DNA from: an uncultured Candidatus Saccharibacteria bacterium
Lineage (GTDB): Bacteria > Patescibacteriota > Minisyncoccia > Phycocordibacterales > PALSA-1337
Direction of reading: 5' to 3'
DNA: 44,836 nucleotides
Assembly: GCA_964591325.1 (NCBI GenBank)
Contig: CAZQAQ010000004.1
Span: forward strand, 1 to 44,836
Shown: positions 26,383 to 42,200 of the stretch, piece after piece
Numbering within the stretch: position 1 is the first letter of the stretch
Layout of the letters: each line of letters opens with the position of its first letter
Notes under the pieces: generated by a model
Seen by the model: the letters and a program-made list of their open reading frames with translations, nothing else
Databases searched by the model: none
Told to the model about the DNA's origin: nothing
Program-made: the position numbers and the translations under genes

Positions 26383-26390
26383 TACATAAA

Positions 26391-27518: not shown

Positions 27519-27555
27519 AAAATAAAATAAAAATAAACAAAAGATATCCACATAA

Positions 27556-27613: not shown

Positions 27614-27670
27614 AAGAAGTAGCAAATATGTTTTTTGCCCAAAATATATTTCACTTCAACCACTGGGCAT

Positions 27671-28114: not shown

Positions 28115-28122
28115 GCATAAAT

Positions 28123-29052: not shown

Positions 29053-29058
29053 AATAAC

Positions 29059-29388: not shown

Positions 29389-31093
29389 AATCAACCTTAG
29401 AATAAGGATTTTATTAGTATTTCCGTGTATTTTTGCTGTTGTAATAATAGCTAGACTTTATTATTTACAGATAATTAGCGGTGAGCAATACACGGTAAAA
29501 GCTGATAATCAGTACATCAGAAATTCAGACAACTTACTTGATAGAGGAACAATATTCTTTCAGGGTAAAGAAGGTGTAAGAGCAGCGGGGGCAATAATGA
29601 AAGATGGATATACTTTGGTCATAAATCCAAAGAAGATAGAGGATATTCAATATACTTTTGAAGCATTAAGTCAGTTTATAGATATACCAAAAGAAGAATT
29701 TATAGCAAAGGCAAATAAAGATGACCAATATGAGGAAATTAAGAAGAGGTTATCAAAAGAAGTTGGTATTTCAATACAAGGTTTAAAATTGAAAGGGGTT
29801 TCAGTAATAAAAGAAAACTGGAGAGTATATCCAGGTGGCTCTATATCAGCACAAACTATAGGGATAACTGGTTATGGTAATTCAGATACAATTGCTGGAA
29901 GGTATGGACTTGAAAGTTATTATGAAAATGTACTTGGTAGATCTAGATCAGCTCAAAGTGTAAATTTCTTTGCTGAACTTTTTTCTGATATAAAAAATGG
30001 AATAACATTAAATGAAGAAAGTAAGGGTGATATTGTAGCTTCTATAGATCCTGCAGTGCAGAGCTATACCGAAACAATATTAAAAAAAGTAAAAGACACT
30101 TGGAAATCAGACTCTATAGGAGCAATAATAATGAATCCAAAAAATGGTGAAATATATACCATGGCTTCATTGCCAAGCTTTGATCCAAATAATTTAAAAG
30201 AAGTAAAAGACGTAAAACTATTTTCAAATCCTCTTGTTGAGAATGTATATGAAATGGGATCAATCATAAAACCACTTACAATGGCTGTAGGTATAGATAC
30301 AGGTGCAATAAATGCAGATTCAACATATAACGATACAGGTTTTATGATGTTAAATGGTAAAAGAATTGCAAACTATGACGGTAAAGCCAGAGGCGTAATA
30401 TCTGTAAGAGAAGTTCTTGGTCAATCACTAAACGTCGGTGCTGCGACTGTAGCTTTAAAGGTTGGGAATGAAAGATTTTCTGAATATTTCAAAAGTTTTG
30501 GTCTAGGTGAAAAAACAGGTATAGACCAGCCAAATGAAACAAAAGGGATTATTGATAACTTAAATAGTACAAGAGATATAGAGCATGCCACAGCTTCATA
30601 TGGCCAAGGAATTGCTATGTCACCAATAGAAACTATAAGAGCGCTATCAGTTATAGCAAACGGTGGTATGCTCATAAAGCCTCATATAGTAAATAGTATT
30701 GAATATATTGATGGCAGAACTGAGAATCTATTAGATGGCGAATCTTTAAGGGTTATAGAGAGTGATACAGCAACAGATGTGACCAAGATGTTAGTTTCTG
30801 TAGTTGATAATTCTATTTCAAAAGCACATCCTGATATAAAGATGGAGCATTATACAATAGCTGCAAAGACTGGTACGGCTCAGATTGCAGATCATGTAAA
30901 CGGAGGGTATTATAGTGACAGGTATTTACATTCATTTTTTGGATATTTCCCAGCTTATGATCCAAAGGTTATTGTATTTATTTATCAAGTTTATCCAAAG
31001 GGCGCACAATACGCCTCTGAAACACTTGTAGATCCATTTACTGAAATTACAAAATTCCTTATTAGCTATTACGATATTCCACCAGATAGATAA
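29378..31093 (+). CDS. ftsI: division-type class B penicillin-binding protein (FtsI-like)
   Basis: 571 aa. TM anchor, SxxK (GSIIKP), SxN (SLN), KTG (KTGTAQ). Confidence 0.8.
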   Translation: MNSEINLRIRILLVFPCIFAVVIIARLYYLQIISGEQYTVKADNQYIRNSDNLLDRGTIFFQGKEGVRAAGAIMKDGYTLVINPKKIEDIQYTFEALSQFIDIPKEEFIAKANKDDQYEEIKKRLSKEVGISIQGLKLKGVSVIKENWRVYPGGSISAQTIGITGYGNSDTIAGRYGLESYYENVLGRSRSAQSVNFFAELFSDIKNGITLNEESKGDIVASIDPAVQSYTETILKKVKDTWKSDSIGAIIMNPKNGEIYTMASLPSFDPNNLKEVKDVKLFSNPLVENVYEMGSIIKPLTMAVGIDTGAINADSTYNDTGFMMLNGKRIANYDGKARGVISVREVLGQSLNVGAATVALKVGNERFSEYFKSFGLGEKTGIDQPNETKGIIDNLNSTRDIEHATASYGQGIAMSPIETIRALSVIANGGMLIKPHIVNSIEYIDGRTENLLDGESLRVIESDTATDVTKMLVSVVDNSISKAHPDIKMEHYTIAAKTGTAQIADHVNGGYYSDRYLHSFFGYFPAYDPKVIVFIYQVYPKGAQYASETLVDPFTEITKFLISYYDIPPDR

Positions 31094-31127
31094 AATATAG
31101 AAAAAGATAGATAAATAAACAGAAAAT

Positions 31128-32411
31128 ATGAAATCAATATTTAAAAAAATTATTACAAATATTTTGTTTTTAGAGTCAAAATTGATTCTAAAAAAGTATA
31201 AACCATACATAATCGCCGTTACAGGAAGTGTAGGTAAGACATCAACAAAAGATGCTATATATAGCCTAATATCATCAAATCTAAAGGTTAGAAAAAGTGA
31301 AAAGAGTTTCAATAGTGAAATAGGTGTACCACTTACTATTTTAGGTGTTGCAAATGCTTGGAGTGATCCTGTAGCTTGGCTAAAGAATATTTTCTATGGT
31401 TTAGAGCTTATATTTTTTAAATTTCCTTATCCAGAATGTTTGGTGGTAGAAGTAGGAGCTGATCACCCAAACGATATTAAGAACGTAGCTAAATGGTTAA
31501 AACCAGATATAGCTGTTTTAACAAAGGTTGGTAGTGTACCAGTGCATGTAGAATTTTTCCCCTCAATAGAGTCACTTTTACTTGAGAAATTTCAATTACC
31601 AAAAGCATTAAAAAAAGATGGAATATTTATATTTTCAAACGACGATATAGCTATAAAGAGTCTAGCTCCAGCTATTGAGAGAAAACAATTTACTTTTGCA
31701 ATAGACAATAATGCAGACCTTACAGCAAAAGACGAAAGTATATTATATGAAGAGAGAGATGGTCTGAAATTTCCTATAGGAATATCATTTAATTTAAATT
31801 TAAATAATACAAATCATATAGTAAAACTCGAAGGGGTTATAGGTAAACAACATATTTATCCTATACTTGGCGCAGTTTCAGTTGCTATTCAAAAAAATAT
31901 TCCAATAGAAAATATAATAAATAATATTTCAAAACATATTCCTCCAAGAGGTAGAATGAATATAATAAAAGGTATAAATGATTCTACAATTATCGATGAT
32001 ACCTACAATTCATCTCCAGACGCATTACATGAAGCTATAAATGCATTAAAAAAGATTGAAACTTCTGGTAGAAAGATATTGGTAATAGGGGATATGATGG
32101 AATTGGGACAGTATTCAAAGAGTGAACATGAAAAGATAAGAGGGGCAATGAATGGGGGAGTTTTCGATGTTATAACAGTTGGTCAAAGAGCAAAGGTGAT
32201 AGCTAGAACTACAAAAAATGATAAATCATTTAACAATTCTATAGAAGCAGGTGAATATATGAAGTCTATAATAACAAAAGGGGATATTGTCCTAGTAAAA
32301 GGATCTCAATCTATGCGTATGGAAAGAGTTACAAAATCTATTATGTTAAATCCAGAAAAAGCACCACAACTACTAGTTAGACAAGATCCAGAGTGGCTTG
32401 CTAAGGAGTAG
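31128..32411 (+). CDS. murF: UDP-MurNAc-tripeptide--D-Ala-D-Ala ligase MurF
   Basis: 427 aa. VTGSVGKTSTKD P-loop. DDTYNSSPDAL is the MurF-type motif, not the MurE-type DYAHTPDAL. Confidence 0.85.
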   Translation: MKSIFKKIITNILFLESKLILKKYKPYIIAVTGSVGKTSTKDAIYSLISSNLKVRKSEKSFNSEIGVPLTILGVANAWSDPVAWLKNIFYGLELIFFKFPYPECLVVEVGADHPNDIKNVAKWLKPDIAVLTKVGSVPVHVEFFPSIESLLLEKFQLPKALKKDGIFIFSNDDIAIKSLAPAIERKQFTFAIDNNADLTAKDESILYEERDGLKFPIGISFNLNLNNTNHIVKLEGVIGKQHIYPILGAVSVAIQKNIPIENIINNISKHIPPRGRMNIIKGINDSTIIDDTYNSSPDALHEAINALKKIETSGRKILVIGDMMELGQYSKSEHEKIRGAMNGGVFDVITVGQRAKVIARTTKNDKSFNNSIEAGEYMKSIITKGDIVLVKGSQSMRMERVTKSIMLNPEKAPQLLVRQDPEWLAKE

Positions 32412-32447
32412 GAAATGTTTTAAAGTGTTGTAGGTGAATATGTAATT

Positions 32448-32543
32448 TATGGAGTGAAAATATGTTTTTATCGTCCTGCGGAACTCGCTACGCAAGCTCC
32501 GCTCAGACAGTCCTCGGACTCAAAAACACATTTCCACTCCATA
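32448..32543 (-). ncRNA. 96-nt nested imperfect hairpin (candidate structured RNA or palindromic element)
   Basis: A 22-bp AT-rich outer stem (32448-32469 / 32522-32543) encloses a GC-rich 11-bp inner stem (32478-32488 / 32492-32502). All four mismatches are A-C on the plus strand, which become G-U pairs on the minus strand. Confidence 0.4.
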
Positions 32544-32597
32544 GTAAATAAGTATCATTTTTCATTCATAAATACTTATATATTTTTATCAGTTATT

Positions 32598-32669
32598 GGC
32601 CCTATCGTCTATCGGCTAGGACGGAGCCTTCTCAAGGCTCAAAGCAGGGTTCGATTCCCTGTAGGGTCA
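32598..32669 (+). tRNA. tRNA-Glu (anticodon CUC)
   Basis: Full cloverleaf. Acceptor GGCCCTA/TAGGGTC. D-arm GTCT-ATCGGCTA-GGAC. Anticodon arm GAGCC-TTCTCAA-GGCTC. T-arm CAGGG-TTCGATT-CCCTG. Discriminator A. CCA is not encoded. Confidence 0.9.
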
Positions 32670-32670
32670 T

Positions 32671-32714
32671 GCAATAAAAACAAAGGGCATATAGATGCCT
32701 TTTGTTTTTGTTGC
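32671..32714 (+). terminator. 20-bp hairpin immediately 3' of tRNA-Glu
   Basis: GCAATAAAAACAAAGGGCAT-atag-ATGCCTTTTGTTTTTGTTGC. The two non-Watson-Crick positions are G-U on the plus strand. The U-rich tract lies inside the 3' arm. Confidence 0.55.
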
Positions 32715-32738
32715 ATATGATACTACTGGAGATGAGAA

Positions 32739-32804
32739 AGCCGGAGGTTGCGAAGGCAACCGAGGCGGGGTCGCTGGCGAGGCTAGCAAGCCGAGACCTG
32801 TGAC
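32739..32804 (+). other. GC-rich non-coding segment with two hairpins
   Basis: GCC[gga]GGTTGC-gaag-GCAACC[ga]GGC at 32739-32766 and GGTC[gct]GGC-11 nt-GCC[ga]GACC at 32769-32798. Composition contrasts sharply with the AT-rich flanks. Confidence 0.5.
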
Positions 32805-32825
32805 CGATTCCCTGTAGGGTCACCA
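32805..32825 (+). repeat. 18-nt direct copy of the tRNA-Glu 3' end, plus CCA
   Basis: CGATTCCCTGTAGGGTCA at 32805-32822 is identical to 32652-32669. It is followed by CCA, whereas the intact gene is followed by TGC. The 5' strand of the T-stem is absent, so this is a fragment. Confidence 0.85.
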
Positions 32826-32826
32826 T

Positions 32827-32856
32827 TTGACACAGTATATATAGTATGATTATATT
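32827..32856 (+). promoter_or_regulatory. sigma70-type promoter abutting the tRNA-end repeat
   Basis: TTGACA (32827-32832), 18-nt spacer, TATATT (32851-32856). Confidence 0.4.
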
Positions 32857-32917
32857 AAATGGGAATACTTTGAAATATTATAATAAATAGAACGAAACAA
32901 AGAAAGGAAAAGTAGTT

Positions 32918-33361
32918 ATGTCTGCACGAAACAGAGTCAACCAGCAGCGTTTTTGGGATCAGTGGCTTCAGTCCGGAGCGGTTGGTGGGATAGTAATCTA
33001 TGGAATGTCCACAGATGGTCCAACTCCGCCACCTTGCAATCGGAAGATTCTTAAAAAAGGCAGAGGTGTCTGTGTTCTTGATGGAAGCTCTAATGCTATC
33101 GAAACCTGGGTCCGGGCAGTGGCAATGAAGGCAGACGCTCAAGTTGACTGGCATTACAGCGGAGGGCGTGCGAATGTTCTCCATCTCGGCGATGACGAGA
33201 GTCGTCAACGGGTACTGAACGTCATCGAGGAGCTCAAGGACGAACTCAACGGATGCATCCTGAGTGTCGGTGGACCTGCACTCTACCGTGCAGGCGACGA
33301 GGTTCCCGCAGGAACAGTCGCTGTTGACCCAGACCTCGGACCTATTGTCGCCAATATGTGA
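32918..33361 (+). CDS. hypothetical protein (147 aa, markedly G+C-rich)
   Basis: AAAGGAAAAG RBS region. Clean ORF in the most GC-rich stretch of the window. Terminator at 33377-33415. No motif recognised. Confidence 0.6.
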   Translation: MSARNRVNQQRFWDQWLQSGAVGGIVIYGMSTDGPTPPPCNRKILKKGRGVCVLDGSSNAIETWVRAVAMKADAQVDWHYSGGRANVLHLGDDESRQRVLNVIEELKDELNGCILSVGGPALYRAGDEVPAGTVAVDPDLGPIVANM

Positions 33362-33376
33362 AAGTAAACCTCGTAC

Positions 33377-33415
33377 GAACCCCGCGAGAAAAACAAAGGG
33401 GTTCTTTTTATTTTC
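33377..33415 (+). terminator. rho-independent terminator
   Basis: GAACCCC-14 nt loop-GGGGTTC followed by TTTTTATTTT. Confidence 0.55.
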
Positions 33416-33584
33416 ATTACGATGTCTTGTCTATCTCTAGTTTTGTTACTATTGAGGTAAAAGTAACAAGGACTTCTTTTTATAAAACTAGGCTTTTACG
33501 TACTTATCCAAGTGACTTCCAAACATCACGATCACTTCATTCCAGCGAAGAACCTCACTTTCAAAAGTATGAGTTCTGAATTTT

Positions 33585-33627
33585 GAAAAAGAAAACCCAC
33601 CGAAGCAGGTTTTCCTGTTCAGTGGGC
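33585..33627 (-). terminator. rho-independent terminator (same family as 3856 and 5426)
   Basis: The minus strand reads GCCCACTGAACAGGAAAACCTGCTTCGGTGGGTTTTCTTTTTC. Confidence 0.75.
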
Positions 33628-33640
33628 AATGTTTTTGCAG

Positions 33641-34297
33641 TTAGGCCGCTACGGTGGATTTGACCTCAAACAATCGTGCATCACGATAGCTAAGTGGGCT
33701 TTCAAAATAGATATTGCCGATTTGGAGACCGACAAAGAGGTTGTCTGCTTCATGTCCAAATTTTAAGACGCCATGTCGCGCAACGAATTCCTCGGTGATT
33801 TTCTGTTCCAAGTCATCTCCAAAGTACCCAACACTTTCAGTTGAGACAAGACTACCTTTAGGTGACAGCAAGTCAACCAACTCTTCGAACTCAACAGACC
33901 ATACTGGCTTGCCGGACAACAAACATTCGTCATATCGAACCGATTCAATCAGGTTCGCTTCAATTTTTAATGCAAATTGGTTGCCTACCTCCTTTGCGAC
34001 GACATTGAACACAAACCGGCTAAGGTCAATGTTGATGTCCGCGTGCTTGTCGCCAAACTCATCCACGACTTTGTCGAGGAAAAATTGGGCATCATGGTTC
34101 TGCAGGCAGATTTGTGGACCACTTCCGTCAATCAATTGCCGGAACGCTTCCTGCAACTGCAATGGATTTCTTCGCAGTCTATCAACCTGCTCTTGAGACA
34201 AACCACGGATAACCGGTGACAGGGCTTTCGTGACTTCAGCTGCCAACGACAGGGCACTACCAACACTAACAGTTGTTTTCGAGGATGTTTTACTCAT
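33641..34297 (-). CDS. hypothetical protein (218 aa, higher G+C)
   Basis: AAAGGAGAGGAAA RBS region upstream on the minus strand. Own terminator. No motif recognised. Confidence 0.6.
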   Translation of the reverse strand: MSKTSSKTTVSVGSALSLAAEVTKALSPVIRGLSQEQVDRLRRNPLQLQEAFRQLIDGSGPQICLQNHDAQFFLDKVVDEFGDKHADINIDLSRFVFNVVAKEVGNQFALKIEANLIESVRYDECLLSGKPVWSVEFEELVDLLSPKGSLVSTESVGYFGDDLEQKITEEFVARHGVLKFGHEADNLFVGLQIGNIYFESPLSYRDARLFEVKSTVAA

Positions 34298-34564
34298 AAG
34301 AGTTGTTTCCTCTCCTTTCTTTTATTGTTGTTTAGGTACTAAATGGCGATTTTCTAATACATCATTAGATGTGTCAATTAACCATAAATATCATGTCATA
34401 GCTTAGCAAGTAAGTCAATATTATGTATTTTTTTAAATTATTTCTTTAAGTACTGCAAATAGCATTCAATCCGCTAGAGAAAGACAAATCCAGGCTCAAA
34501 AGGAAGAACAAATAAAAAATAATAATACTTATACAAACGTCTCAAAATCAAATAAATAACAGTC

Positions 34565-34595
34565 TTGCCAAGATAATTTTATTATGTGATATAAT
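34565..34595 (+). promoter_or_regulatory. extended -10 sigma70-type promoter
   Basis: TTGCCA, 19-nt spacer ending in TGa, then TATAAT. Confidence 0.45.
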
Positions 34596-34619
34596 TCTAA
34601 CAGAAAGGAGGTGGTTAAA

Positions 34620-34913
34620 ATGACCATCCTAGAGATTAGAAGACTAGCTAGAGTTTTTGGTGCTGATGTAGATTGTTCACCTGAATCTATATTAAGTCGT
34701 AAGTATGGATCAGCCATAGCAATAATTAGGCCAGATGATCTAAGTCGATATTGTTTGTTTGATAATAGATTATCACAAATAAAATTGGTACCTGATTGGA
34801 CAGATTGGGTAAAGGGAGATTGTGCAGATGCAATCGCAACTATAATATCTGATTCACCAAAAGATGTGGATGAATTAGCAAAAAAAGTAAGGGAGGCTCA
34901 GTATGCAGTATAA
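34620..34913 (+). CDS. hypothetical ~97-aa protein, paralogue of 35379..35690
   Basis: AAAGGAGG lies 8 nt before ATG 34620; the track's GTG 34611 start is unlikely. Motifs shared with 35379: E[IL]RR[LV]A..[FY]G, W.[DE]W[VM].GD.A..[IV]AT, [DE]L[AV]K.VR. Confidence 0.6.
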   Translation: MTILEIRRLARVFGADVDCSPESILSRKYGSAIAIIRPDDLSRYCLFDNRLSQIKLVPDWTDWVKGDCADAIATIISDSPKDVDELAKKVREAQYAV

Positions 34914-34918
34914 AGCGC

Positions 34919-34956
34919 ACTCGCCTTATGACCAAAAGTCTAGGCGAGTTTTTTTG
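34919..34956 (+). terminator. rho-independent terminator
   Basis: ACTCGCCT-15 nt-AGGCGAGT followed by TTTTTTT. Confidence 0.65.
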
Positions 34957-34968
34957 GTGTATACTATT

Positions 34969-35271
34969 TTATACCTTAGGCTTATCTAACTTCTCTAAAT
35001 TTAATTTTTTTACTCCAAAATATACAACTGATGAAACTATAATAAAGTTAATAAGTATACTTAAGAATTTACCATAAGTGATATTTGCAGATGCTATATG
35101 TAATGAAAGGGTAGATAGATCACCAAATTTACCCAGTGCCAAGCCGATTATTGGGTTAATAAGATCATTTACTATTGAAGACACAACATCAGATACGGCT
35201 TTACCCAATATAAAACCAACTGCTAGACCTATAGCCCCTTGAGTCCTAATAAAATCAATAAAATTTTTCAT
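34969..35271 (-). CDS. mscL: large-conductance mechanosensitive channel MscL
   Basis: 100 aa. FIDFIRTQGAIGLAVGFILGKAVSDVVSSIVNDLINPIIG is the MscL TM1 signature. AT-rich, backbone-like composition. Confidence 0.9.
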   Translation of the reverse strand: MKNFIDFIRTQGAIGLAVGFILGKAVSDVVSSIVNDLINPIIGLALGKFGDLSTLSLHIASANITYGKFLSILINFIIVSSVVYFGVKKLNLEKLDKPKV

Positions 35272-35378
35272 AACTATATTATATACGTAAAAATAATGTC
35301 ATCAAATCTTGATTGACATATATACTTAAATATGATAAAAAATAAGTGTAGTGAACATTGTAATACGGAGGTCTATCA

Positions 35379-35690
35379 ATGAGAATTAGACGGAATTTAT
35401 CAAATGTAGAACTAAGGAGGGTGGCTGACCACTATGGCATCACGTTTTTGAATGGCTCAAATATCGTGGGGTCAGGCGGTTCACAAAAGGTTAAGGTATT
35501 CCATGGAGAAAATCCAAGGGATACAGTATCCTTTGATCAGGAAAATATGTTCTTCAAGTCCACCCATTGGAAGGAGTGGATGGATGGGGATATCGCTTAT
35601 GTTGTTGCAACCGCAATGACGGGTAAGGGATATCCACATCCTGATCTGGTAAAAGCAGTTCGACGCCAAGCAAAGAAACTTCTGAAGTAA
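35379..35690 (+). CDS. hypothetical 103-aa protein, paralogue of 34620..34913
   Basis: CGGAGG RBS. See the shared motifs listed for 34620. Terminator at 35703-35740. Confidence 0.6.
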   Translation: MRIRRNLSNVELRRVADHYGITFLNGSNIVGSGGSQKVKVFHGENPRDTVSFDQENMFFKSTHWKEWMDGDIAYVVATAMTGKGYPHPDLVKAVRRQAKKLLK

Positions 35691-35702
35691 AGCTTGGTTC
35701 AA

Positions 35703-35740
35703 ACCGCATGTGGAGGAAGCTCCCATGCGGTTTTACTTTT
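35703..35740 (+). terminator. rho-independent terminator
   Basis: ACCGCATG(t)GGAG-gaag-CTCCCATGCGGT followed by TTTTACTTTT. Confidence 0.75.
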
Positions 35741-35798
35741 ATCTTATAAATTGATTTATATTTTTTTAAACCTTACAAACATCCAGAATTTTATCCCT

Positions 35799-35826
35799 TT
35801 GACAAAAGTTGTATTAGTTGTAATAT
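35799..35826 (+). promoter_or_regulatory. sigma70-type promoter of the sigma-factor gene
   Basis: TTGACA, 16-nt spacer, TAATAT. AAAGGAGG RBS before ATG 35858. Confidence 0.5.
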
Positions 35827-35857
35827 ATTACAAGAAAGTTTTTCCAAAGGAGGATAA

Positions 35858-36718
35858 ATGAAAAATAACGATAAGGCCCACGAAAGAGATACGTTTCTCT
35901 GGTACCTCAGCAAGATAGGTCAGTATCCATTAATATCAAGGGAGCAAGAAATCGTTCTTGCAAAGCGTATAGCTAAAGGTGATAAAAGTGCGAAAGAAGA
36001 ATTGGCACTATCGAACCTTAGGCTTGTCGTAAAGATCGCTCTCGATTACTCTGGCCTTGGTATGGATGATATTGAATTGGTCAATGAAGGCAATATCGGC
36101 CTGATGAAAGCAGTTGAAAAATTTGATCCCAAGAAGGGCGCTAAATTCTCAACTTATGCCGCTTGGTGGATAAAGCAATCTATTAAGCGGGCATTGTCAG
36201 ACACAGTAAACACCATCAGAATTCCTATCCATGAAGGTGAGAAATTCCGTAGGGCCAGAAGAGCACTAGATAAATACCTTGCAGCTTCTGGTGGCTGTAA
36301 ACCAAATCAGAGAGAAATGGTTAGACTGTCTGGAATGAGTTATAAAAAGTTCAATGAACTTGAAGCTCTTCTCCAACCAGTTTCATTACATTCACCAAAA
36401 TCACCAGATGGTGAAGTTTCACTTGGTGATATGATTGAGGATCAAAACATTGTGGAACCTGATGAAGATCGTCAACATCAGGGTGATATCGAGGTTGTAA
36501 CTGAGCTATTGACCGAGCTCACACCTAGAGAAAGGGATGTAATTAAAAGAAGGTTTGGGTTTGGCTGTGAGGAGGAGACACTTGAGGATGTCGGTACTAC
36601 TCACGGTATTACAAGAGAGCGTGCTAGACAAATCCAACGTGACGCAATCTTTAAATTGAGGAGATTATTTCTTAAACGAAACAGGCAACATGATGTATTT
36701 GGTTTGCCAGTTTCATAA
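35858..36718 (+). CDS. compact sigma-70-family RNA polymerase sigma factor (regions 1.2-4.2, no region 1.1)
   Basis: 286 aa. YLSKIGQYPLISREQE (1.2), NLRLVVKIA...NEGNIGLMKAVEKFDPKKGAKFSTYAAWWIKQSI (2.1-2.4), RIPIH (3.0), LTPRERDVIKRRFG...TLEDVGTTHGITRERARQIQRDA (4.2). Confidence 0.85.
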   Translation: MKNNDKAHERDTFLWYLSKIGQYPLISREQEIVLAKRIAKGDKSAKEELALSNLRLVVKIALDYSGLGMDDIELVNEGNIGLMKAVEKFDPKKGAKFSTYAAWWIKQSIKRALSDTVNTIRIPIHEGEKFRRARRALDKYLAASGGCKPNQREMVRLSGMSYKKFNELEALLQPVSLHSPKSPDGEVSLGDMIEDQNIVEPDEDRQHQGDIEVVTELLTELTPRERDVIKRRFGFGCEEETLEDVGTTHGITRERARQIQRDAIFKLRRLFLKRNRQHDVFGLPVS

Positions 36719-36726
36719 AAAAACAC

Positions 36727-36756
36727 CACAGGATCACTCGATCCTGTGTTTTTTAT
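36727..36756 (+). terminator. rho-independent terminator
   Basis: CACAGGATC-actc-GATCCTGTG followed by TTTTTT. Confidence 0.75.
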
Positions 36757-36902
36757 TTTAGAAATATGTTTTTAAACAAAATTTATACTATTTAAAACTT
36801 ATATTTTTCGTATATTTTTTTTGGACTAAATAGAAGTTTTTTAAGTCAATATTATAAGCCATATTTTAGAGGTCTTATCCACAAAAAAGTTGAATAAACC
36901 AC

Positions 36903-36931
36903 TTGCTTTTATTTGTCAAGTGTGGTATATT
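36903..36931 (+). promoter_or_regulatory. extended -10 sigma70-type promoter
   Basis: TTGCTT, 17-nt spacer ending in TGg, then TATATT. Confidence 0.5.
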
Positions 36932-37027
36932 AGTACCAGAAGTTTCTAGCTCATTGAAGTATGAGAAATGGAAACCAAACCAAAAATTTGTCGCAATTTT
37001 TGCGATAACAACGCAAAGGAAAAATAT

Positions 37028-38017
37028 ATGAAGACTAACAAGTCTCTCATTGCAATCCTGACTTCGGTCATGTTTGCAATTTTCACCCTTGCGTTTGTCG
37101 CAAGGGCTCAGTCTCCAGCACCCGCTGGAAACTCCAACACTGCTTCGGTGGTTGTCCCGTCTGTTTTGCCTGATTCGCTTCCTATCGGAAGTGAGCAGGT
37201 AATGCTCGATTGGGCGGTGACTAACAGGCAGTGGAGTGTGTATCCCCTCATGACATCATGGGATGTCTCGATTCGATACACAGGCAAGGATAATAATATA
37301 CATGAAGTCGGTGTTTCTGTGATTAATTATCCAATCAGTACGTACCAAGGCTTTGAGGATAAGGTTGTAGAAGTAGGCAATCTTCTTCTAAATACCATAA
37401 GAAAAAATAGAGACATAGATCCCACCAAGGGTCTTAGCTTTAAACTTTTTTATGGTTATGACAACGACCTTGATAATACTGGTGTTACTAGTTTTTACAT
37501 CCAGAAGGATCTTGGCCTTATTGGTACTATAACGGACAACACCTTCAGGAATATGGAGGTTACATGGTACCAGTCTATTGTCAGGTTTAAATCACTTGAG
37601 AGAGTCGAAATTAATATCGATTCTGACCCTGCGTATAACTACGTATGGCCAAGTGGTGGTGTAAAAACCCAGTCGGTATACCCGATTGAGTTTACTACAT
37701 CTGAGTACCACGTGTTTCGTACCTGGTATTCAACCAATGCTTTCAAAGCACGTTTTAAAATTACTGCCTCTGGGGAAACGGCAACGTATACTCAAATAGG
37801 AAGTAAGCTCAAAGCACCTTCGGTAAAGGTCTTGAGTGACAGAGCGGTTGAGGTTTCCATGACGCCAGGTTCGCATACGGTTGTAGAAACCAGTGTGGAC
37901 ATGGTTAATTGGAGTGTTATGAAAGACATTCCATGGAATTTGAGTACGGAAAGCCAGATAGTTTTGGTCTATCCGCCAAATTCACCTCATCGCTTCTTTC
38001 GAGCCTGGTCGGAGTAG
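37028..38017 (+). CDS. secreted hypothetical protein (~329 aa)
   Basis: AAAGGA RBS and ATG 37028 give the signal peptide MKTNKSLIAILTSVMFAIFTLAFVARA|QSP. The track ORF starts 20 codons upstream at 36968. The C-terminal VETSVDMVNWSV...HRFFRAW resembles the ..S.DL..W....FYR beta-sandwich tail common in secreted proteins of other phyla. Confidence 0.65.
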   Translation: MKTNKSLIAILTSVMFAIFTLAFVARAQSPAPAGNSNTASVVVPSVLPDSLPIGSEQVMLDWAVTNRQWSVYPLMTSWDVSIRYTGKDNNIHEVGVSVINYPISTYQGFEDKVVEVGNLLLNTIRKNRDIDPTKGLSFKLFYGYDNDLDNTGVTSFYIQKDLGLIGTITDNTFRNMEVTWYQSIVRFKSLERVEINIDSDPAYNYVWPSGGVKTQSVYPIEFTTSEYHVFRTWYSTNAFKARFKITASGETATYTQIGSKLKAPSVKVLSDRAVEVSMTPGSHTVVETSVDMVNWSVMKDIPWNLSTESQIVLVYPPNSPHRFFRAWSE

Positions 38018-38033
38018 TATCCTCCGATTAGCA

Positions 38034-38068
38034 TTCAAAAAAGGCCTTACGCAAGTAGGGCCTTTTCT
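38034..38068. terminator. bidirectional terminator between convergent genes
   Basis: AAAAAA-AGGCCTTAC-gcaa-GTAGGGCCT-TTTT. Confidence 0.7.
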
Positions 38069-38092
38069 GTATCTATTTTTCTTTTGTTTTCT

Positions 38093-41000
38093 TTATATTT
38101 CTTCTATTAACGAGTCTGTAACTAGTAGTTTAACAGCGTTACTATAGATTTTTGACTTAGTATTGTCAGATGAAGTACATGTAATTTTGAATGTATACAA
38201 GATCGGTTCTGCACTAGCTGTACTTATATTTTGAACTACATTATTATTTGTCGAATCAGTACTAAATGGGAACAGCTCATTAATAGTTGAGTTGTCAGGC
38301 TTATAAACTCTATTTGCACAACTATAATCACTTGATAATGAACTTATATACTTTATTCTCGCAGGATTTCCTTTTTTAACTTTATAAGGCACTACTTTGG
38401 AGTCATCTTTTTCTACTGTTGATGATAGGGTCTTATTTGCTATCGAAGAATTACCTAGGAAAAGTACTACTGAAAGAGGGTTTGTTGTTGGGGGAGGAGG
38501 AGGGCAACTTGATGAACAGTTTGGTGGTACGTTTGGATTGACATTATTTACTCCAGGATTAGGATCAACACAGTTTCCATTTCCATCTGACACTAGTCCT
38601 GATGGTATACCAGATTGTGTACCTGCTATGTTTTGACATACATCTACGATTGTAAGTGATCTTAGACCTAGTTGAACTGAGTTACTGTCTAATGAAGGTA
38701 GACCAGTAGTGCTGTTACAATGTATTACGAAGCTATATGAACCTAGTATTACTGAACTCTGTGAAGTTGTTAGAGTGTTTGAAATACCATTTAGACTATT
38801 TCCCCAAGTCCATATACTGTTACCATTTGATCCATCTGGTTTTATTACGGCATTTGTACATGTGTATCCACCTACTATACCTGTAGATGACCAGTTCAAC
38901 ATAAATGTATCTCCTTTAGATATATCGACCGCAGTGCTATAGCTAGAGTCTGTAGATCTTTTGATTCCAAGTGTTAGTTGGGGAGCAGGGCAGTTTGTAG
39001 TTGTAAGTTTTGGTGATGTTACTGTAACAGCGGGTGAAGCAGACTGAAGTTTTCCACCAACAGTTGCTGCTACTGTATATGTATATTTTGTATCTGCACT
39101 AAATGTAGGATATTTTTCTGTATTTTCACTACCTTTAACAGTATATTTTATTGTTTCTGAAGGATTTGATCTTGTTCTAGTTACGGTATATGAATCCGCA
39201 CCTATATTATTCCAACTTTGAGTCATGGTTAATTCAGAAGCAAAGCATTTATCACCGGAACTTGTAACTTGTAGACCGTAGTTTATAGCATCAACTGGTG
39301 GTGGAGGTGCTACTTCAAAACATCCAGATTGACCATTTGCACAAGGAACTAGATTTGCTGTGGCTGTTAGTGGATCTTGAATCGTTACCGATACAATATT
39401 ACTCAATACTGTATTTGTTCCATTTGTACATGACACTTTTAGCTGATACATACCTGTATCGATATCGTATGTCCATAAACCAGTAGCAATAGATCCTATA
39501 GTATTACCGTAAGACCATATTGTATTGTCGGTTGCTGCACTAGGAGTAACAGTCACCTGTCTACATGTATAGTCTGGTGTTAGGTTGCTTACCCACTTTA
39601 GATCAAACTGAGCACCGAGAGGTATAGATATTGTAGAATTTGTAGCGTTTGGAACGGTTGCAACATCATACAGAGCTAAATTTGTGATTTTATCAGCTGT
39701 CTTTTTTGTAAATAATTTTACAATTGGTGTAACAGTTGGTTGAGGACATTGTGAACCTGTTAAGTACTTTGGAGAATAAACATTAACATCATTTGAACCT
39801 ACTTGCTCAGCACCAGATATAATAGCGGCTACTTTGTAGGTGTATAGAGTGTTATAAACCATTGTAACATCTGTATATGAAGTACCAGACACTGATCTAA
39901 CTACAACTGGTTCTGATGTACCAGATCTTGTTCTGTATAGTTTGTATGAACTTGCCCCAGATATTGCATTCCAAGTAAGTTTTATATTTAGGTCACTTGA
40001 TTTACAGCTATCAGCAGATGGAGTCGCAACTAAGTTGTATACAAGAGGAGACTGCACTGTAACATTAAATGTTGTTGTTCTTGTTATAACAGAAGTGTTA
40101 TTTGTAGAAACAGTAGGGGCAGAATTACATGTAAAATAAGTTGAAGCACTCTGCTCATTTCCAGACATGGTGTAGTTATTTACACCACATTCTCTTAATG
40201 CAAGAGATCTTCTAAAATCTACAACTTTCTGAGCACCAGATGAGTTTGCAAGGTATAAATTTTGACCTACAACCTTACATGAACCATCATCAAAGTTTAT
40301 ACACTTTGTAGAATTTAAACCTCCGTTTACATCATAATCTGTTTGGGGGTTGAATCCTGATTCTGTACTACAACCAAAATAGAATCCATCGTACTGATTG
40401 TTTCCATTTGACTGAGGATCAGTTACAAAGACAATACTACATGGGTACTTTAGTTGTGTTCCATTTGCTACCGATGACTTTTTATATGTTCCTGAAACCG
40501 TGACTGTATAAAGACCTTTTGGAGTTGTTGAGTATGAGTATAGTGTTAGGTTTGTATTTGAGGATGGATTTGGTGTAACAATTTTTCCACCAGAGAATGA
40601 ACCACCACCAACTGCAATTCCATTTGCTGCATCTTTTACACTTGCACCAGATGAATTTGTAATAGAATCAACATTAAGCGTTACATCTCCACTTGTAAGG
40701 GGGGATAGAGATGTGGTTGTAATTACACTAGATATATTGTTACCAGCAGTTATGATCTTATTACCATCATTTGAAAGTTTAAAATCAAAACTTAATAGTG
40801 TGATTGGTTCAATGTATACTTTTCCATCTCCACCTTTAGTTACACTTGCAGAATCAGCAACACCAGCTCCACCTCCTGGAGCTTTTCCATTTATACCGTC
40901 ATTACCGCCAACTCCACCCATAGCACCAGCTCCACCCGGTACATTTTTTGTAATTTGAGAAGGGAAAGGATTTGGAGTAGATGGTGAAGAACCTTGTATT

Positions 41001-41734
41001 GATGTAATTCCAGAGTAAGTTCCAAAACCACTTCCTCCACCAGGTATTCTTATACAAGTTGAACCAAAGTTTCCATTTCCATCACCACACCAACTTGTTA
41101 CTTTTCCTGCTAAACCAGCACCATTACCACCAACAGTATCTGAAGCACCTTTTCCATGAAGGCTACCAACATTAAATTCACTTGAGACTGGATAGGCTAC
41201 AGCAAATTTGCCAGGAGTTGTAAAACCAGAAGCACCTCCTCCAGCACCTACGTATTTATTATTTGATCTACTTTTTAGTATTGAGGCACCAGCAGATTTA
41301 TCAGTAAAAGTAGGATTTGAGTTGTATGTAGAGTAAAGGACATAAGGGGACATACTTGCTACCGGAGTTGTTTGCCCACCAGCACCTACAGTAACATCAA
41401 AAATTTCTCCTTGGGTAACAGGAATTATTGCTTCAGAATAACCTCCTCCGGCACCACCAACAGCTGCCCAATTATTACAATTTGAAAATATAAAACCTGT
41501 ACATGTTATATCTGAATTTCCTCCACCTCCACCCGCACCCCATATTTTAACCTTCAACATTGAGACTCCAGATGGAACAGTATAAGTATATGATCCAGGT
41601 GTACTAAATGTTGTAGGAGTAGCCTGTGCAAAAGACGTCTTCGGGTTTATTGAAACTATAGATGCTAAAATAAACAATAGTAAGGCAATAAATTTCCCAG
41701 AATTTAGTGTGTTTTTTAAAATATTTCTTTTCAT
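38093..41734 (-). CDS. 1213-aa secreted surface protein: N-terminal glycine-rich domain plus repeated Fn3/Ig-like modules
   Basis: Signal peptide ...SINPKTSFA|QATP. Residues ~40-310 carry motifs resembling the Gly_rich (PF12810-type) pattern: KIWGAGGGGG, VGGAGGGYSE, VTVGAGGQ, GAGGGASG, PGGGSGFG, GGAGAMGGVGGNDG, PGGGAG. Two copies follow of a bipartite module (W N.[IG].A.SY.[LV].RTRS then a Cys-framed Ig-like domain), then a PPPPP linker and a final Ig-like domain. Confidence 0.8.
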   Translation of the reverse strand: MKRNILKNTLNSGKFIALLLFILASIVSINPKTSFAQATPTTFSTPGSYTYTVPSGVSMLKVKIWGAGGGGGNSDITCTGFIFSNCNNWAAVGGAGGGYSEAIIPVTQGEIFDVTVGAGGQTTPVASMSPYVLYSTYNSNPTFTDKSAGASILKSRSNNKYVGAGGGASGFTTPGKFAVAYPVSSEFNVGSLHGKGASDTVGGNGAGLAGKVTSWCGDGNGNFGSTCIRIPGGGSGFGTYSGITSIQGSSPSTPNPFPSQITKNVPGGAGAMGGVGGNDGINGKAPGGGAGVADSASVTKGGDGKVYIEPITLLSFDFKLSNDGNKIITAGNNISSVITTTSLSPLTSGDVTLNVDSITNSSGASVKDAANGIAVGGGSFSGGKIVTPNPSSNTNLTLYSYSTTPKGLYTVTVSGTYKKSSVANGTQLKYPCSIVFVTDPQSNGNNQYDGFYFGCSTESGFNPQTDYDVNGGLNSTKCINFDDGSCKVVGQNLYLANSSGAQKVVDFRRSLALRECGVNNYTMSGNEQSASTYFTCNSAPTVSTNNTSVITRTTTFNVTVQSPLVYNLVATPSADSCKSSDLNIKLTWNAISGASSYKLYRTRSGTSEPVVVRSVSGTSYTDVTMVYNTLYTYKVAAIISGAEQVGSNDVNVYSPKYLTGSQCPQPTVTPIVKLFTKKTADKITNLALYDVATVPNATNSTISIPLGAQFDLKWVSNLTPDYTCRQVTVTPSAATDNTIWSYGNTIGSIATGLWTYDIDTGMYQLKVSCTNGTNTVLSNIVSVTIQDPLTATANLVPCANGQSGCFEVAPPPPVDAINYGLQVTSSGDKCFASELTMTQSWNNIGADSYTVTRTRSNPSETIKYTVKGSENTEKYPTFSADTKYTYTVAATVGGKLQSASPAVTVTSPKLTTTNCPAPQLTLGIKRSTDSSYSTAVDISKGDTFMLNWSSTGIVGGYTCTNAVIKPDGSNGNSIWTWGNSLNGISNTLTTSQSSVILGSYSFVIHCNSTTGLPSLDSNSVQLGLRSLTIVDVCQNIAGTQSGIPSGLVSDGNGNCVDPNPGVNNVNPNVPPNCSSSCPPPPPTTNPLSVVLFLGNSSIANKTLSSTVEKDDSKVVPYKVKKGNPARIKYISSLSSDYSCANRVYKPDNSTINELFPFSTDSTNNNVVQNISTASAEPILYTFKITCTSSDNTKSKIYSNAVKLLVTDSLIEEI

Positions 41735-41738
41735 GTCT

Positions 41739-42098
41739 TTATTGTTGTCTATTAAGAGCTTCTAATATCGTTGCTTTCTCTTCTGTTGTTAAATTCATGG
41801 AATTTGCATCACCAAACTGGCTTAGTATGAGGTTTTTTTCATATGGTGTTAGAGGTTCACTCTCGATCTTTGCTATTCTAGCGAATAGCGCTACCTTTTT
41901 TGATGAAACATCGTATGTGTCTGGTAGAGTAAGGCTTCCTTTTGGATCAATCTCAATTCTTTTTTCCGGTATTAGATTGCCAGCTTTTTCACCTATAAAT
42001 TGCCATAGAAATGATAGTCCAATGACAATCAGTAATACAAATATTAACCACAACATTTTTTTGTGGCTATTATCTTTGGGTCTTTTAAAAAATTCCAT
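41739..42098 (-). CDS. small N-terminally anchored membrane protein, co-oriented 4 nt upstream of the giant gene
   Basis: 119 aa. TM helix MLWLIFVLLIVIGLSFLW. Probably co-transcribed. An extended -10 (TGaTATAAT) lies upstream on the minus strand at ~42140-42150. Confidence 0.6.
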   Translation of the reverse strand: MEFFKRPKDNSHKKMLWLIFVLLIVIGLSFLWQFIGEKAGNLIPEKRIEIDPKGSLTLPDTYDVSSKKVALFARIAKIESEPLTPYEKNLILSQFGDANSMNLTTEEKATILEALNRQQ

Positions 42099-42200
42099 GT
42101 TTATTTTATTTTAGAACTATTAATACATGTGTAATTATATCACGTAATACACTATAAAATTTTGCTTGCTGTGGAAATCTAAATATGATATTTTATATCC

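What the first reader, a model, noticed from the sequence alone, without database searches (positions are those of the whole stretch)
32412..42098. tRNA-Glu-anchored accessory island that ends the dcw cluster after murF
The division/cell-wall cluster stops at murF (32411). Where mraY, murD and ftsW would normally follow, there is a structured spacer, tRNA-Glu(CUC), a duplicated tRNA 3' end, and ~9.5 kb of genes of mixed composition. Two of these (32918-33361 and 33641-34297) are the most G+C-rich DNA in the window. Only mscL has a recognisable core function. AT-rich backbone genes (DoxX-like, valS) resume at ~42.2 kb. tRNA 3' ends are classic integration targets. However, no integrase, recombinase, transposase or conjugation gene is present, so the island is either decayed or arrived by another route.
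Basis: partly seen in the sequence, partly recalled or inferred. Interest (0 to 1): 0.65.

Follow-up and report, generated by a model that had tools for sequence, protein, structure and literature searches.

The report
tRNA-Glu insertion hotspot with tRNA-mimic module
In an uncultured Parcubacteria-type bacterium, a tRNA gene is followed by a small folded element that copies the tRNA's tail, and related genomes carry different foreign genes right after it; the "island" idea holds for about 1.7 kb, and the element belongs to a widespread family I could not find described.

Summary
The sequence features are real. murF ends at 32411, followed by a hairpin spacer, tRNA-Glu(CUC), and a second exact copy of the tRNA's last 18 nt 153 nt downstream.

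- **The dcw cluster is not cut short by an island.** murF followed directly by tRNA-Glu(CUC) is the ancestral order, seen in 23 of 39 related Paceibacteria genomes. valS lies 0.5-9.6 kb further on in 13 of them.
- **The 9.7 kb is layered, not one island.**
  - Only 32826-~34580 is species-specific. It holds two G+C-rich genes, p118 and p218, with the worst codon fit in the window.
  - A sister species has a truncated large serine recombinase, nadE and four small ORFs there instead. Another contig has a KAP NTPase.
  - All of these diverge exactly after "GGGTCACC".
- 34580-42100 is syntenic in the sister species.
- **The duplicated tRNA end is not a simple scar.** It is the 3' arm of a ~110-nt three-way-junction element supported by covariation. 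At least 120 metagenome contigs carry it behind tRNAs of nearly every identity and behind tmRNA. It has no Rfam match.

One caveat: the tRNA+module unit (232 nt) occurs twice in this population, so short-read phasing of the left junction is not proven.

The parts
27635..32411 (+). Truncated dcw cluster: mraZ, rsmH, ftsL-like, ftsI, murF. This is the left conserved anchor.
   Evidence: Pfam. The same order, followed by tRNA-Glu, occurs in 23 of 39 informative relatives.
32447..32544 (+). Palindromic hairpin element filling the murF-tRNA spacer
   Evidence: RNA fold -36 kcal/mol, z -5.8. Near-identical relatives join 32411 to 32597 with only 23-33 other letters. L030 has a different hairpin here.
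32597..32670 (+). tRNA-Glu(CUC). The gene lacks an encoded CCA. Its last 18 nt are repeat copy 1 (32652-32669).
32670..32715 (+). 21-bp intrinsic-terminator-like hairpin directly behind the tRNA
   Evidence: Fold. Equivalent hairpins occur in L051, L053, L071 and many metagenome copies.
32718..32804 (+). tRNA-end-mimic module. It has a degenerate antisense of the tRNA 3' end (32718-32736), the conserved junction GAAAGCCGGAG, hairpin 1, GAGGCGGGGTC, hairpin 2, then GTGAC.
   Evidence: MFE -73.8 kcal/mol, z -7.6 for the stretch 32670-32826, which also includes the terminator hairpin. Covariance model hit at 32712-32828, 82.9 bits. Covariation in 44 homologous copies.
32805..32825 (+). Repeat copy 2: tRNA-Glu positions C56 to A73, followed by CCA. 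It is the 3' arm of the module and the point after which related genomes diverge.
32826..34580 (.). Species-specific cassette. In L197 it is replaced by a recombinase remnant, nadE and four small ORFs.
   Evidence: blastn of L197 against the window: 1-131 = 32699-32829, with similarity resuming at 34570. Boundaries.
33005..33361 (+). p118: a 118-aa protein with a ferredoxin-like alpha/beta fold and unknown function. It is G+C-rich in every host genome examined.
   Evidence: 276 homologues, 64-85% identical among the 120 listed. Gene G+C is 0.60-0.69 against flanks of 0.30-0.38 in L022 and L024. AF2 pLDDT 85. No significant PDB match.
33641..34297 (-). p218: a 218-aa protein of unknown function, G+C-rich
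   Evidence: Nine proteins found including the window's own, the others 52-98% identical. In L026 a 63%-identical copy sits 0.7 kb from valS, while ValS is only 44% identical.
34620..34913 (+). p100 (97 aa from the ATG). It has native codon usage and is a distant paralogue of p103.
34969..35271 (-). mscL
   Evidence: Pfam MscL 1.6e-21. 95% identical in L197.
35379..35690 (+). p103, GC3 0.42
35858..36718 (+). Sigma-70 family factor of RpoD/RpoS type, regions 1.2 to 4
   Evidence: The only close homologues are three at 79-88%; all others are 50% or less.
36968..38017 (+). p349, a secreted or membrane-anchored protein, GC3 0.44
   Evidence: 60% identical in L197.
38093..41734 (-). p1213, a giant glycine-rich surface protein with native codon usage
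   Evidence: Gly_rich_2 (weak) and PHROG tail-fibre-like stretches. Codon-fit z +0.1.
41739..42098 (-). p119, a small membrane protein
   Evidence: 95% identical in L197
42201..44794 (+). doxX and valS, the right conserved anchor
   Evidence: Pfam. valS lies downstream of tRNA-Glu in 13 relatives, and doxX is in that interval in 6 of them. Ten independent contigs run continuously across 42.1 kb.

Best explanation
The stretch between tRNA-Glu(CUC) and doxX-valS is a long-standing insertion hotspot of this Paceibacteria lineage. It was filled in layers and is not one island.

**Layer 0.** The order mraZ-rsmH-ftsL-ftsI-murF-tRNA-Glu ... valS is ancestral.

**Layer 1.** A ~155-nt element sits behind the tRNA. 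It consists of a terminator hairpin, an antisense copy of the tRNA's 3' end, a conserved three-way-junction core, and a direct copy of the tRNA's last 18 nt plus CCA. I read it as a small non-autonomous element that entered at the T-loop. On this reading it brought its own copy of the tRNA tail, which now completes the gene without CCA. The original CCA-bearing tail was pushed 153 nt downstream.

**Layer 2.** The displaced tail acts as a surrogate attachment site. Directly behind GGGTCACC, related genomes carry different cargo:
- in the window, a 1.75-kb cassette with two foreign-looking genes, p118 and p218;
- in the sister species, a decayed large-serine-recombinase element.

The window's cassette most likely arrived in one of two ways. 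One is integration of a serine-recombinase element that later lost its recombinase. The other is homologous replacement between the conserved module and the p100 promoter.

**Layer 3.** 34580-42100 (p100, mscL, p103, sigma-70, p349, p1213, p119) is older and shared at genus level. It is a mosaic of native and still G+C-rich genes. It is absent from this position in more distant relatives.

**What is shown:** the anchors, the breakpoints, the composition, the recombinase remnants in relatives, and the fold and spread of the module.

**What is inferred:** the direction and enzymology of each insertion.
For: **Ancestral anchors**
- tRNA-Glu(CUC) lies on the same strand within 310 nt of murF in 23 of 39 informative relatives (MurF 37-95% identical). 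valS follows 0.47-9.6 kb behind it in 13.

**Exact common breakpoint**
- L001 is 99.9% identical to the window over 21128-32824, then unrelated.
- L197 positions 1-131 match 32699-32829 at 97.7%, then diverge. Similarity resumes at 34570 and runs to 44836 at 82-83%.
- L097 has the same module followed by 4.7 kb with a KAP NTPase, bounded by a repeated TAGGGTCACC.
- Four-way alignment.

**Recombinase link**
- In L197 and L097, a 352-aa Recombinase plus Zn-ribbon ORF without the catalytic domain ends antisense on the tRNA-like copy.
- Its C-terminal 50 aa recur at 62% identity directly behind the genuine tRNA-Glu of L063.

**Composition**
- p118 and p218 have the worst codon fit in the window (z -5.8, -5.3), and tetranucleotide r drops to 0.77-0.81.
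- p118 is G+C-rich relative to its flanks in all four hosts examined, and its neighbours differ between them.

**Module**
- The tRNA's own 3' end recurs 136-160 nt downstream in the window and 6 of 23 relatives, each copy matching its own tRNA. A seventh relative, L051, has a partial copy.
- At least 120 metagenome contigs carry the core. In about 65 of 82 copies a tRNA lies 20-90 nt upstream, covering nearly all identities. Three more copies lie downstream of smpB, where a tmRNA gene is expected.
- In the fold, 85% of cells are paired against 34-45% in slid controls. The covariation score is 0.444 against 0.08-0.14. One G-U pair is invariant.
- Among the metagenome copies, CCA follows copy 2 only in 5 cases and copy 1 only in 1; the window is a sixth copy-2-only case.

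**Continuity**
- Logan unitigs cover 32795-35372 at depth 49, against 54.5 and 51.8 on either side.
- Ten contigs cross 42.1 kb.
Against: - The window has no recombinase, no third repeat and no recognisable right-hand att site, so integration of the p118-p218 cassette is inferred only from relatives.
- The right boundary lies in the p100 promoter with no repeat. That fits homologous replacement as well as site-specific insertion.
- The 232-nt tRNA+module unit (32593-32824) is present at two loci of equal depth in the same population. One assembly, L001, joins murF to the other exit. The murF-p118 link rests on four short-read assemblies and on deep synteny, not on spanning reads.
- Elevated G+C persists in the sister species' p103, sigma and p349. 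Composition therefore does not date arrival, and it may be gene-intrinsic.
- No enzyme for module mobility was found next to any copy.
- No empty-site allele (a 32669-to-32823 joint) was seen in the four runs laid at 90% likeness.
- No expression data exist. The 'metatranscriptome' runs look like DNA.
Confidence: 0.6

Rival explanations
1. A single, decayed, integrase-mediated genomic island spans 32412-42098. One element integrated at tRNA-Glu, split the dcw cluster, and later lost its integrase and its far att site.
For: - A tRNA 3' end repeat is present.
- Five of the nine genes have atypical codon usage.
- No sigma or p349 orthologue lies near murF in relatives outside the genus.
Against: - The repeats are 153 bp apart and there is no third copy.
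- murF-tRNA-Glu with no mraY behind it is ancestral.
- 34580-42100 is syntenic in the sister species while 32826-34580 is not.
- Four genes in the stretch are compositionally native.
Confidence: 0.07
2. There is no horizontal transfer here. The region is ordinary, vertically inherited, fast-evolving lineage-specific DNA. The G+C-rich genes are G+C-rich for gene-intrinsic reasons such as expression or encoded structure. The module is a host non-coding RNA, a tRNA acceptor/T-arm mimic made with or after the tRNA, and not a mobile element. Differences between genomes arise from deletion and homologous exchange.
For: - p118 is G+C-rich in all four hosts examined, and in two loci it has a consensus-like TTGACA-N17 promoter.
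- G+C-rich p103, sigma and p349 keep their composition in L197.
- G+C-rich outliers, including mraZ, are scattered through the window.
- The module's invariant G-U pair and its covariation indicate function as RNA.
- No mobility gene lies next to the modules.
Against: - p118 (64-85% identity among the best 120 homologues, some from other candidate phyla such as Magasanikbacteria) and p218 (63% where ValS is 44%) are more conserved than core genes and sit in unrelated contexts.
- Recombinase remnants lie at the same junction.
- The module is patchy among orthologous tRNA-Glu loci, forms tandem arrays, and occurs with at least three unrelated cores sharing the same arms.
Confidence: 0.18
3. The left junction is an assembly artefact. 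The exact 232-nt tRNA+module unit occurs twice in the genome. The window therefore joins the murF side of one locus to the p118-valS side of the other.
For: - The unitig 32642-32805 has twice the flank depth: 103.6 against about 50.
- A second upstream context enters the same tRNA at equal depth.
- Many contigs end at 32625-32696 or start at 32770-32795.
- L001 joins murF to the other exit.
- The L001 tail carries the doxX type that neighbours valS in five relatives.
Against: - Four assemblies from different samples and assemblers join murF to p118: the window, L010, L003 and L006.
- 13 relatives keep valS downstream of murF-tRNA-Glu, and the nearest informative one (L036) has the window's doxX type next to valS.
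Confidence: 0.13

Closest known systems
tRNA-gene-anchored genomic islands and prophages with att identity blocks in the T-loop-to-3'-end sublocation (Williams 2002 scheme, from my own knowledge), and their integrase-less derivatives (cis-mobilisable elements)
   Same: - The direct repeat runs from the T-loop (C56) to the tRNA's end.
- The intact gene carries one copy and the displaced copy lies downstream.
- Variable cargo starts exactly at the repeat.
- Recombinase genes abut the site in relatives.
   Different: - The repeats bracket only ~135 nt of a conserved folded core rather than an island.
- The same core follows tRNAs of nearly every identity, each time with matching arms.
- An antisense copy of the tRNA end is always present.
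- No integrase lies next to any of about 80 copies.
- The recombinase seen in relatives is a serine recombinase, not a tyrosine one.
Flexible genomic islands or hypervariable islets between conserved anchors, often next to tRNA genes
   Same: - The anchors (tRNA-Glu, doxX-valS) are conserved.
- The filling varies from 0.5 to 9.6 kb.
- It includes defence-like genes (ABC-3C, SMEK, DUF4238, KAP NTPase) and giant surface proteins.
   Different: The left edge is defined to the nucleotide by a tRNA-like sequence, which points to site-specific events and not only to homologous replacement.
tRNA-like structures and minihelix mimics (the tmRNA tRNA-like domain, viral TLS, mascRNA)
   Same: - The module pairs a copy of the acceptor 3' strand and T-stem 3' strand with a complementary 5' arm.
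- It often ends in NCCA, so it resembles an acceptor/T minihelix.
   Different: - The arms copy the neighbouring tRNA exactly.
- The T-loop is replaced by a two-hairpin junction.
- No Rfam family matches.
- Processing and charging are untested.
RNA-guided or hairpin-site recombination elements (IS110 bridge RNA, TnpB right-end RNA, integron attC)
   Same: - A ~100-nt conserved fold lies at an element end, next to about 20 nt that match the target.
- The size and the palindromic arms recall attC.
   Different: - No DEDD, TnpB or IntI gene is nearby.
- The target-matching segments pair with each other instead of lying in open loops.
- This is an analogy only.

Membership tests
Integrase-mediated tRNA-anchored genomic island | Inserted at the 3' end of a tRNA gene | tested here: met
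   Variable DNA starts right after the tRNA-like copy at 32825.
Integrase-mediated tRNA-anchored genomic island | Island bounded by direct repeats (attL/attR) derived from the tRNA end | tested here: not met
   The two copies are 153 bp apart. No further copy within 3 mismatches and no piece of 9 nt or more occurs elsewhere in the window.
Integrase-mediated tRNA-anchored genomic island | Integrase or recombinase gene inside the island | tested here: not met
   None in the nine ORFs, and no remnant by tblastn. A truncated serine recombinase is present at the same junction in L197, L097 and L063.
Integrase-mediated tRNA-anchored genomic island | Atypical composition relative to the backbone | tested here: inconclusive
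   Five of the nine genes are atypical and four are native. Five outliers also lie outside the region.
Integrase-mediated tRNA-anchored genomic island | Present or absent among close relatives | tested here: met
   Met for 32826-34580 (window against L197, L097, L001). Not met for 34580-42100 at genus level.
Canonical dcw cluster (mraZ ... murF-mraY-murD-ftsW ...) | mraY directly follows murF | tested here: not met
   tRNA-Glu follows murF in 23 of 39 relatives. No MraY-family hit with E-value below about 3e-9 among 50 ORFs between tRNA-Glu and valS in 13 relatives.
Any Rfam 15 RNA family (for the module and the spacer hairpin) | Covariance-model match | tested here: not met
   Only the tRNA passes the gathering threshold. 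Nothing credible up to E = 10 over 32380-34650.
Structured RNA (generic) | Helices kept by compensatory changes, with strand-specific G-U pairs | tested here: met
   21 of 31 pairs change on both sides. 85% of cells are paired against 34-45% in slid controls. One G-U pair is invariant in 44 of 44 sequences. Caveat: the sequences were collected by their conserved junction motif.
MITE or other non-autonomous transposon | Terminal inverted repeats and a short fixed-length target-site duplication | tested here: inconclusive
   The arms are inverted copies of the local tRNA end. The direct repeat is 18-23 nt and stops at the tRNA's end. This is unlike known transposase footprints.
IS110 bridge-RNA, TnpB right-end-RNA or integron attC systems | Cognate recombinase or nuclease gene adjacent or in the same genome | not testable with these tools
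   None adjacent. Whole genomes were not available.

The most novel reading that the evidence does not exclude
The element behind tRNA-Glu is one member of a large, undescribed family of ~110-160-nt structured RNA elements in Patescibacteria. Each carries both an antisense and a sense copy of the last ~20 nt of the tRNA or tmRNA it follows. On the most novel reading, these are self-targeting mini-elements. The antisense arm acts as the guide to the T-loop and 3' end of a tRNA gene. The element supplies a spare tRNA tail, so insertion is harmless. The displaced tail then becomes a landing pad for further cargo. This would be a new, recombinase-in-trans or RNA-mediated way of building tRNA-linked islands in bacteria with tiny genomes.
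Probability: 0.3. Interest if true: 0.8.

Novelty: new variant of a known kind. Interest (0 to 1): 0.6.

Why it matters
**For annotation.** In Paceibacteria the dcw cluster ending at murF-tRNA-Glu is normal. G+C-rich orphan genes next to it should not be read as one island.

**For biology.**
- The nucleotide-exact hotspot behind a duplicated tRNA tail, together with serine-recombinase remnants in relatives, shows how gene flow enters genomes that mostly lack classical mobile elements.
- The tRNA-end-mimic module is abundant and supported by covariation. It follows tRNAs of nearly all identities and probably tmRNA genes, and it is absent from Rfam.
- If the module is mobile or processed like a tRNA, it offers a testable handle on tRNA-gene targeting, on decoy attachment sites, and on tRNA-processing enzymes in uncultured episymbionts.
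- p118 is a highly conserved small protein that stays G+C-rich in A+T-rich hosts. It is a good marker for recent transfer among these bacteria.

Tried and rejected
- **Structural breakpoint at 35402-35424.** Several contigs start there. It is only a SNP bubble of two 110/111-nt unitigs, and coverage is continuous.
- **p118 region as a non-coding RNA gene.** Rejected. 276 homologues keep a 118-aa frame, and the AF2 model is confident at pLDDT 85.
- **Function for p118 from its fold.** It has a generic ferredoxin-like fold. The best PDB matches are E >= 0.006 and TM 0.4-0.5, to BMC shell proteins and designed proteins. Pfam, PHROGs and NCBIfam give nothing for p118, p218, p100, p103, p349 or p119.
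- **Module in viral contigs.** No match.
- **L001 junction in the metagenome collection.** No match, because that sample is not in the collection.
- **Autonomous versions of the module.**
  - ORFs upstream of copies without a nearby tRNA are housekeeping genes (SmpB, FtsH, ribosomal protein S2, EF-Ts), not recombinases.
  - Only L097 and L136 have distant repeat partners.
- **Expression evidence.** Four runs labelled metatranscriptomic give flat, genome-like depth.
- **Sigma factor as clearly foreign or clearly housekeeping.** Undecided. Homologues fall from 79% to 50% or less, but this protein evolves fast: it is 79% identical where ValS is 92%.
- **Literature.** Four full-text searches found no description of the module; a fifth query was rejected for syntax.

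Full report
**What the window is.** The window is 33.9% G+C and carries a typical Patescibacteria (Paceibacteria/Parcubacteria) gene set. The genes include def, fmt, priA, murA-like, two mreB, frr, rseP, proS-like, mreC, PBP2, greA, a class II aaRS, mraZ, rsmH, an ftsL-like gene, ftsI and murF. The closest species representatives by MurF are uncultured MAGs at 95, 74, 60, 58 ('Candidatus Taylorbacteria') and 57% identity.

**Checking the observation.**
- murF ends at 32411.
- tRNA-Glu(CUC) is at 32597-32670.
- The 18-mer CGATTCCCTGTAGGGTCA occurs at 32652 and 32805 only, with 0 matches expected by chance.
- The first copy is followed by TGC and the second by CCA.
- The murF-tRNA spacer is a long hairpin (z -5.8).
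- Backbone GC3 is 0.15-0.22.
- Against backbone codon usage, p118 and p218 are the two worst-fitting genes of the window (z -5.8 and -5.3). p349 (-4.1), p103 (-3.5) and sigma (-2.2) are also atypical. p100, mscL, p1213 and p119 are native.
- Five genes elsewhere are outliers too: 1360-2463, 3236-3850, 4486-5412, 13506-13862 and mraZ.

**The dcw cluster is not interrupted by an island.**
- Of 39 related loci with enough downstream sequence, 23 have tRNA-Glu(CUC) on the same strand within 310 nt of murF. Nine more have it within 0.5-8.5 kb.
- valS follows 0.47 kb (L039) to 9.6 kb (L049) behind the tRNA in 13 genomes.
- In L036 the order is murF, tRNA-Glu, cmk, a 115-aa gene, doxX, valS.
- The 50 ORFs in these intervals include DoxX (6), Cyt-b5 (5), CYTH, defence-like ABC-3C/SMEK/DUF4238 proteins, an ABC exporter and giant surface proteins.
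- No MraY and no integrase family reached E < 3e-9 among them.
- murF-tRNA-Glu and doxX-valS are therefore old anchors around a variable interval.

**Where the variable DNA really begins and ends.**
- The identical MurF protein lies on 12 contigs.
- L001 is 99.9% identical to the window over 21128-32824 and unrelated thereafter.
- L197, a sister species, has ValS 92%, p1213 86% and sigma 79% identical.
  - Its contig starts inside the module (positions 1-131 = 32699-32829, 97.7%).
  - It then carries a 352-aa Recombinase plus Zn-ribbon ORF lacking the catalytic domain, nadE and four small ORFs.
  - It rejoins the window at 34570 and stays syntenic through p100, mscL, p103, sigma, p349, p1213, p119, doxX and valS.
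- L097 has the same module and copy. These are followed by 4.7 kb with a KAP NTPase, a repeated TAGGGTCACC, the L001-type terminator, a second degenerate module with a third copy, and the same recombinase end.
- All four sequences share ...GGGTCACC and then diverge.
- The recombinase's C-terminal 50 aa recur (62% identity) antisense directly behind the genuine tRNA-Glu of L063.
- The species-specific cassette of the window is therefore 32826 to about 34580 (p118 and p218). The tRNA-Glu tail, real or copied, is an attachment point for serine-recombinase elements in this clade.
- The window itself has no recombinase remnant and no third repeat.

**The cargo.**
- p118 most likely starts at 33005. 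It has 276 homologues; the best 120 listed are 64-85% identical, some labelled Magasanikbacteria, and nearly all are 118 aa.
- Its neighbours differ in every genome examined. In L020 it follows a tRNA-Asn; in L022 it lies 8 kb from a resolvase, methylase and helicase island.
- Its G+C exceeds the flanks everywhere: 0.65 against ~0.35 in L022, 0.60 against ~0.32 in L024.
- The AF2 model is confident but shows a generic ferredoxin-like fold with no significant PDB match.
- For p218 the search found nine proteins including the window's own. The L026 copy is 63% identical although ValS is only 44% identical, and it too is G+C-rich.
- Both genes behave like recently exchanged genes of unknown function.
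- The sigma factor has only three close homologues (79-88%), and the rest are 50% or less. Whether it is the housekeeping sigma cannot be decided from the window.

**The duplicated tRNA end belongs to a structured module.**
- In six of the 23 relatives with murF-tRNA-Glu, as in the window, the tRNA's own 3' end (from T-loop C56) recurs 136-160 nt downstream. Each copy matches its own tRNA. A seventh, L051, has a partial copy.
- Between the copies lie:
  - usually a terminator hairpin;
  - the reverse complement of the T-loop and T-stem, often also of the acceptor strand;
  - a conserved core GAAAGCNGGAG, hairpin 1, GAGGCGGGGTC, hairpin 2, GTGAC.
- In about 65 of 82 copies a tRNA lies 20-90 nt upstream on the same strand, with nearly every amino-acid identity represented. 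Three more copies lie downstream of smpB, where a tmRNA gene is expected.
- In about 40 copies the tRNA's last 12-23 nt are repeated exactly behind GTGAC. In the 27 copies with repeats of at least 17 nt, the identity stops at or within a few nucleotides of the tRNA's end (discriminator or CCA), apart from tandem arrays.
- On 44 aligned copies a three-way junction is supported:
  - 85% of cells are paired against 34-45% in slid controls;
  - the covariation score is 0.444 against 0.08-0.14;
  - 21 of 31 pairs change on both sides;
  - one G-U pair is invariant.
- This points to function as RNA in the tRNA's sense, or as that single DNA strand.
- The window's copy folds the same way. The stretch 32670-32826, which also includes the terminator hairpin, folds at -73.8 kcal/mol (z -7.6), though its antisense arm is partly degenerate.
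- A covariance model finds it at tRNA-Glu in the window, L010, L001, L030, L038, L051 and L071. Weaker hits occur in L047 and L060, and arm-less variants in L049 and L059.
- Other cores with the same arms exist: L042, L043, L053 and a second unit in L051; and L047 and L060.
- Nothing matches in Rfam 15 or in viral contigs. Four literature searches found no description.
- Among the metagenome copies, CCA follows only the downstream copy in five cases and only the gene copy in one; the window is a sixth downstream-only case. This fits the downstream copy being the displaced original tail.

**Assembly caveat.**
- Logan unitigs show 32642-32805 at twice the flank depth (103.6 against ~50 in X1).
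- A second upstream context enters an identical tRNA at equal depth (26.9 against 28.9 in X24). There are several right-hand exits, including the L001 type.
- The population therefore holds two loci with an identical 232-nt tRNA+module unit (32593-32824), and k-mers cannot phase them.
- Four assemblies (the window, L010, L003, L006) and the deep murF...valS synteny favour the window's arrangement. L001 is probably a mis-join or a recombinant.
- Everything to the right is continuous. 32795-35372 is one unitig at flank depth, 35343-35453 is a SNP bubble, and ten contigs cross 42.1 kb.

**Verdict.**
- The most interesting object is the module, not the island. The module turns a tRNA tail into a second, nucleotide-exact landing site.
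- Its mechanism is not established. I favour a small T-loop-directed, non-autonomous element, at roughly 0.45. A purely host-encoded tRNA-mimic RNA is the main alternative.

Noticed in passing
window 32447-32544: The murF-tRNA spacer is itself an inserted hairpin element. Near-identical relatives have only 23-33 nt here. L030 (95% MurF) has a different hairpin of similar size. The core 32471-32522 recurs elsewhere in the community between other, mutually complementary stems.
   Followed up: partly
window 32593-32824: An identical 232-nt unit (tRNA-Glu(CUC), terminator, module, copy 2) is present at a second locus of equal depth. Identity starts at the tRNA's 5' end and stops at the CC of copy 2. 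This could reflect gene conversion or movement of the whole unit.
   Followed up: partly
window 27635-27680 (start of mraZ); L004 1-1245: A contig with an identical MurF diverges upstream of 27680 and carries shikimate dehydrogenase and dehydroquinase instead of the YbjQ-repeat gene. mraZ is also a codon-usage outlier (GC3 0.36, z -2.9).
   Followed up: no
window 1360-2463, 3236-3850, 4486-5412, 13506-13862: These are further G+C-rich codon-usage outliers (z -2.9 to -4.4). They comprise an AIR-synthase-related protein, a 204-aa unknown, a pentapeptide-repeat protein and a 118-aa unknown. Compositional patchiness is not confined to the flagged region.
   Followed up: partly
window 33005-33361 and L020, L022, L024: The p118 family is 64-85% identical among the best 120 homologues, some from other candidate phyla, and stays at G+C 0.54-0.69 whatever the host G+C. 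Some members are fused to a ~125-aa C-terminal domain (244-253 aa forms).
   Followed up: partly
window 34620-34913 and 35379-35690: Two distant paralogues (22% identity, E 3e-6) flank mscL. One has native codon usage and the other is G+C-rich.
   Followed up: partly
window 15410-16432 and 20518-21582: There are two full-length mreB paralogues 4 kb apart. Relatives keep both.
   Followed up: no
L010 12582-15105 versus L011 12016-15065 (just beyond window 44836): Strains differ again downstream of valS and the acyltransferase gene. One has two unknown ORFs (298 and 307 aa). The other has a HisKA_7TM protein, a FeeM/autoinducer-synthase-like gene and a methyltransferase. In L011 valS is called as two ORFs (361 and 350 aa).
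   Followed up: no
L049 9842-9948 (-) and L059 6215-6319 (-): These are module-like elements with the same second hairpin (GGAATTTTTCAGCAGAAAAATATCC). Their outer arms are unrelated to any tRNA. L049's copy sits between ftsI and murF.
   Followed up: no
runs X24-X27 laid on window 31000-38200: Libraries labelled metatranscriptomic give flat, genome-like depth over genes, intergenic DNA and both strands. They carry no expression information for this organism.
   Followed up: yes
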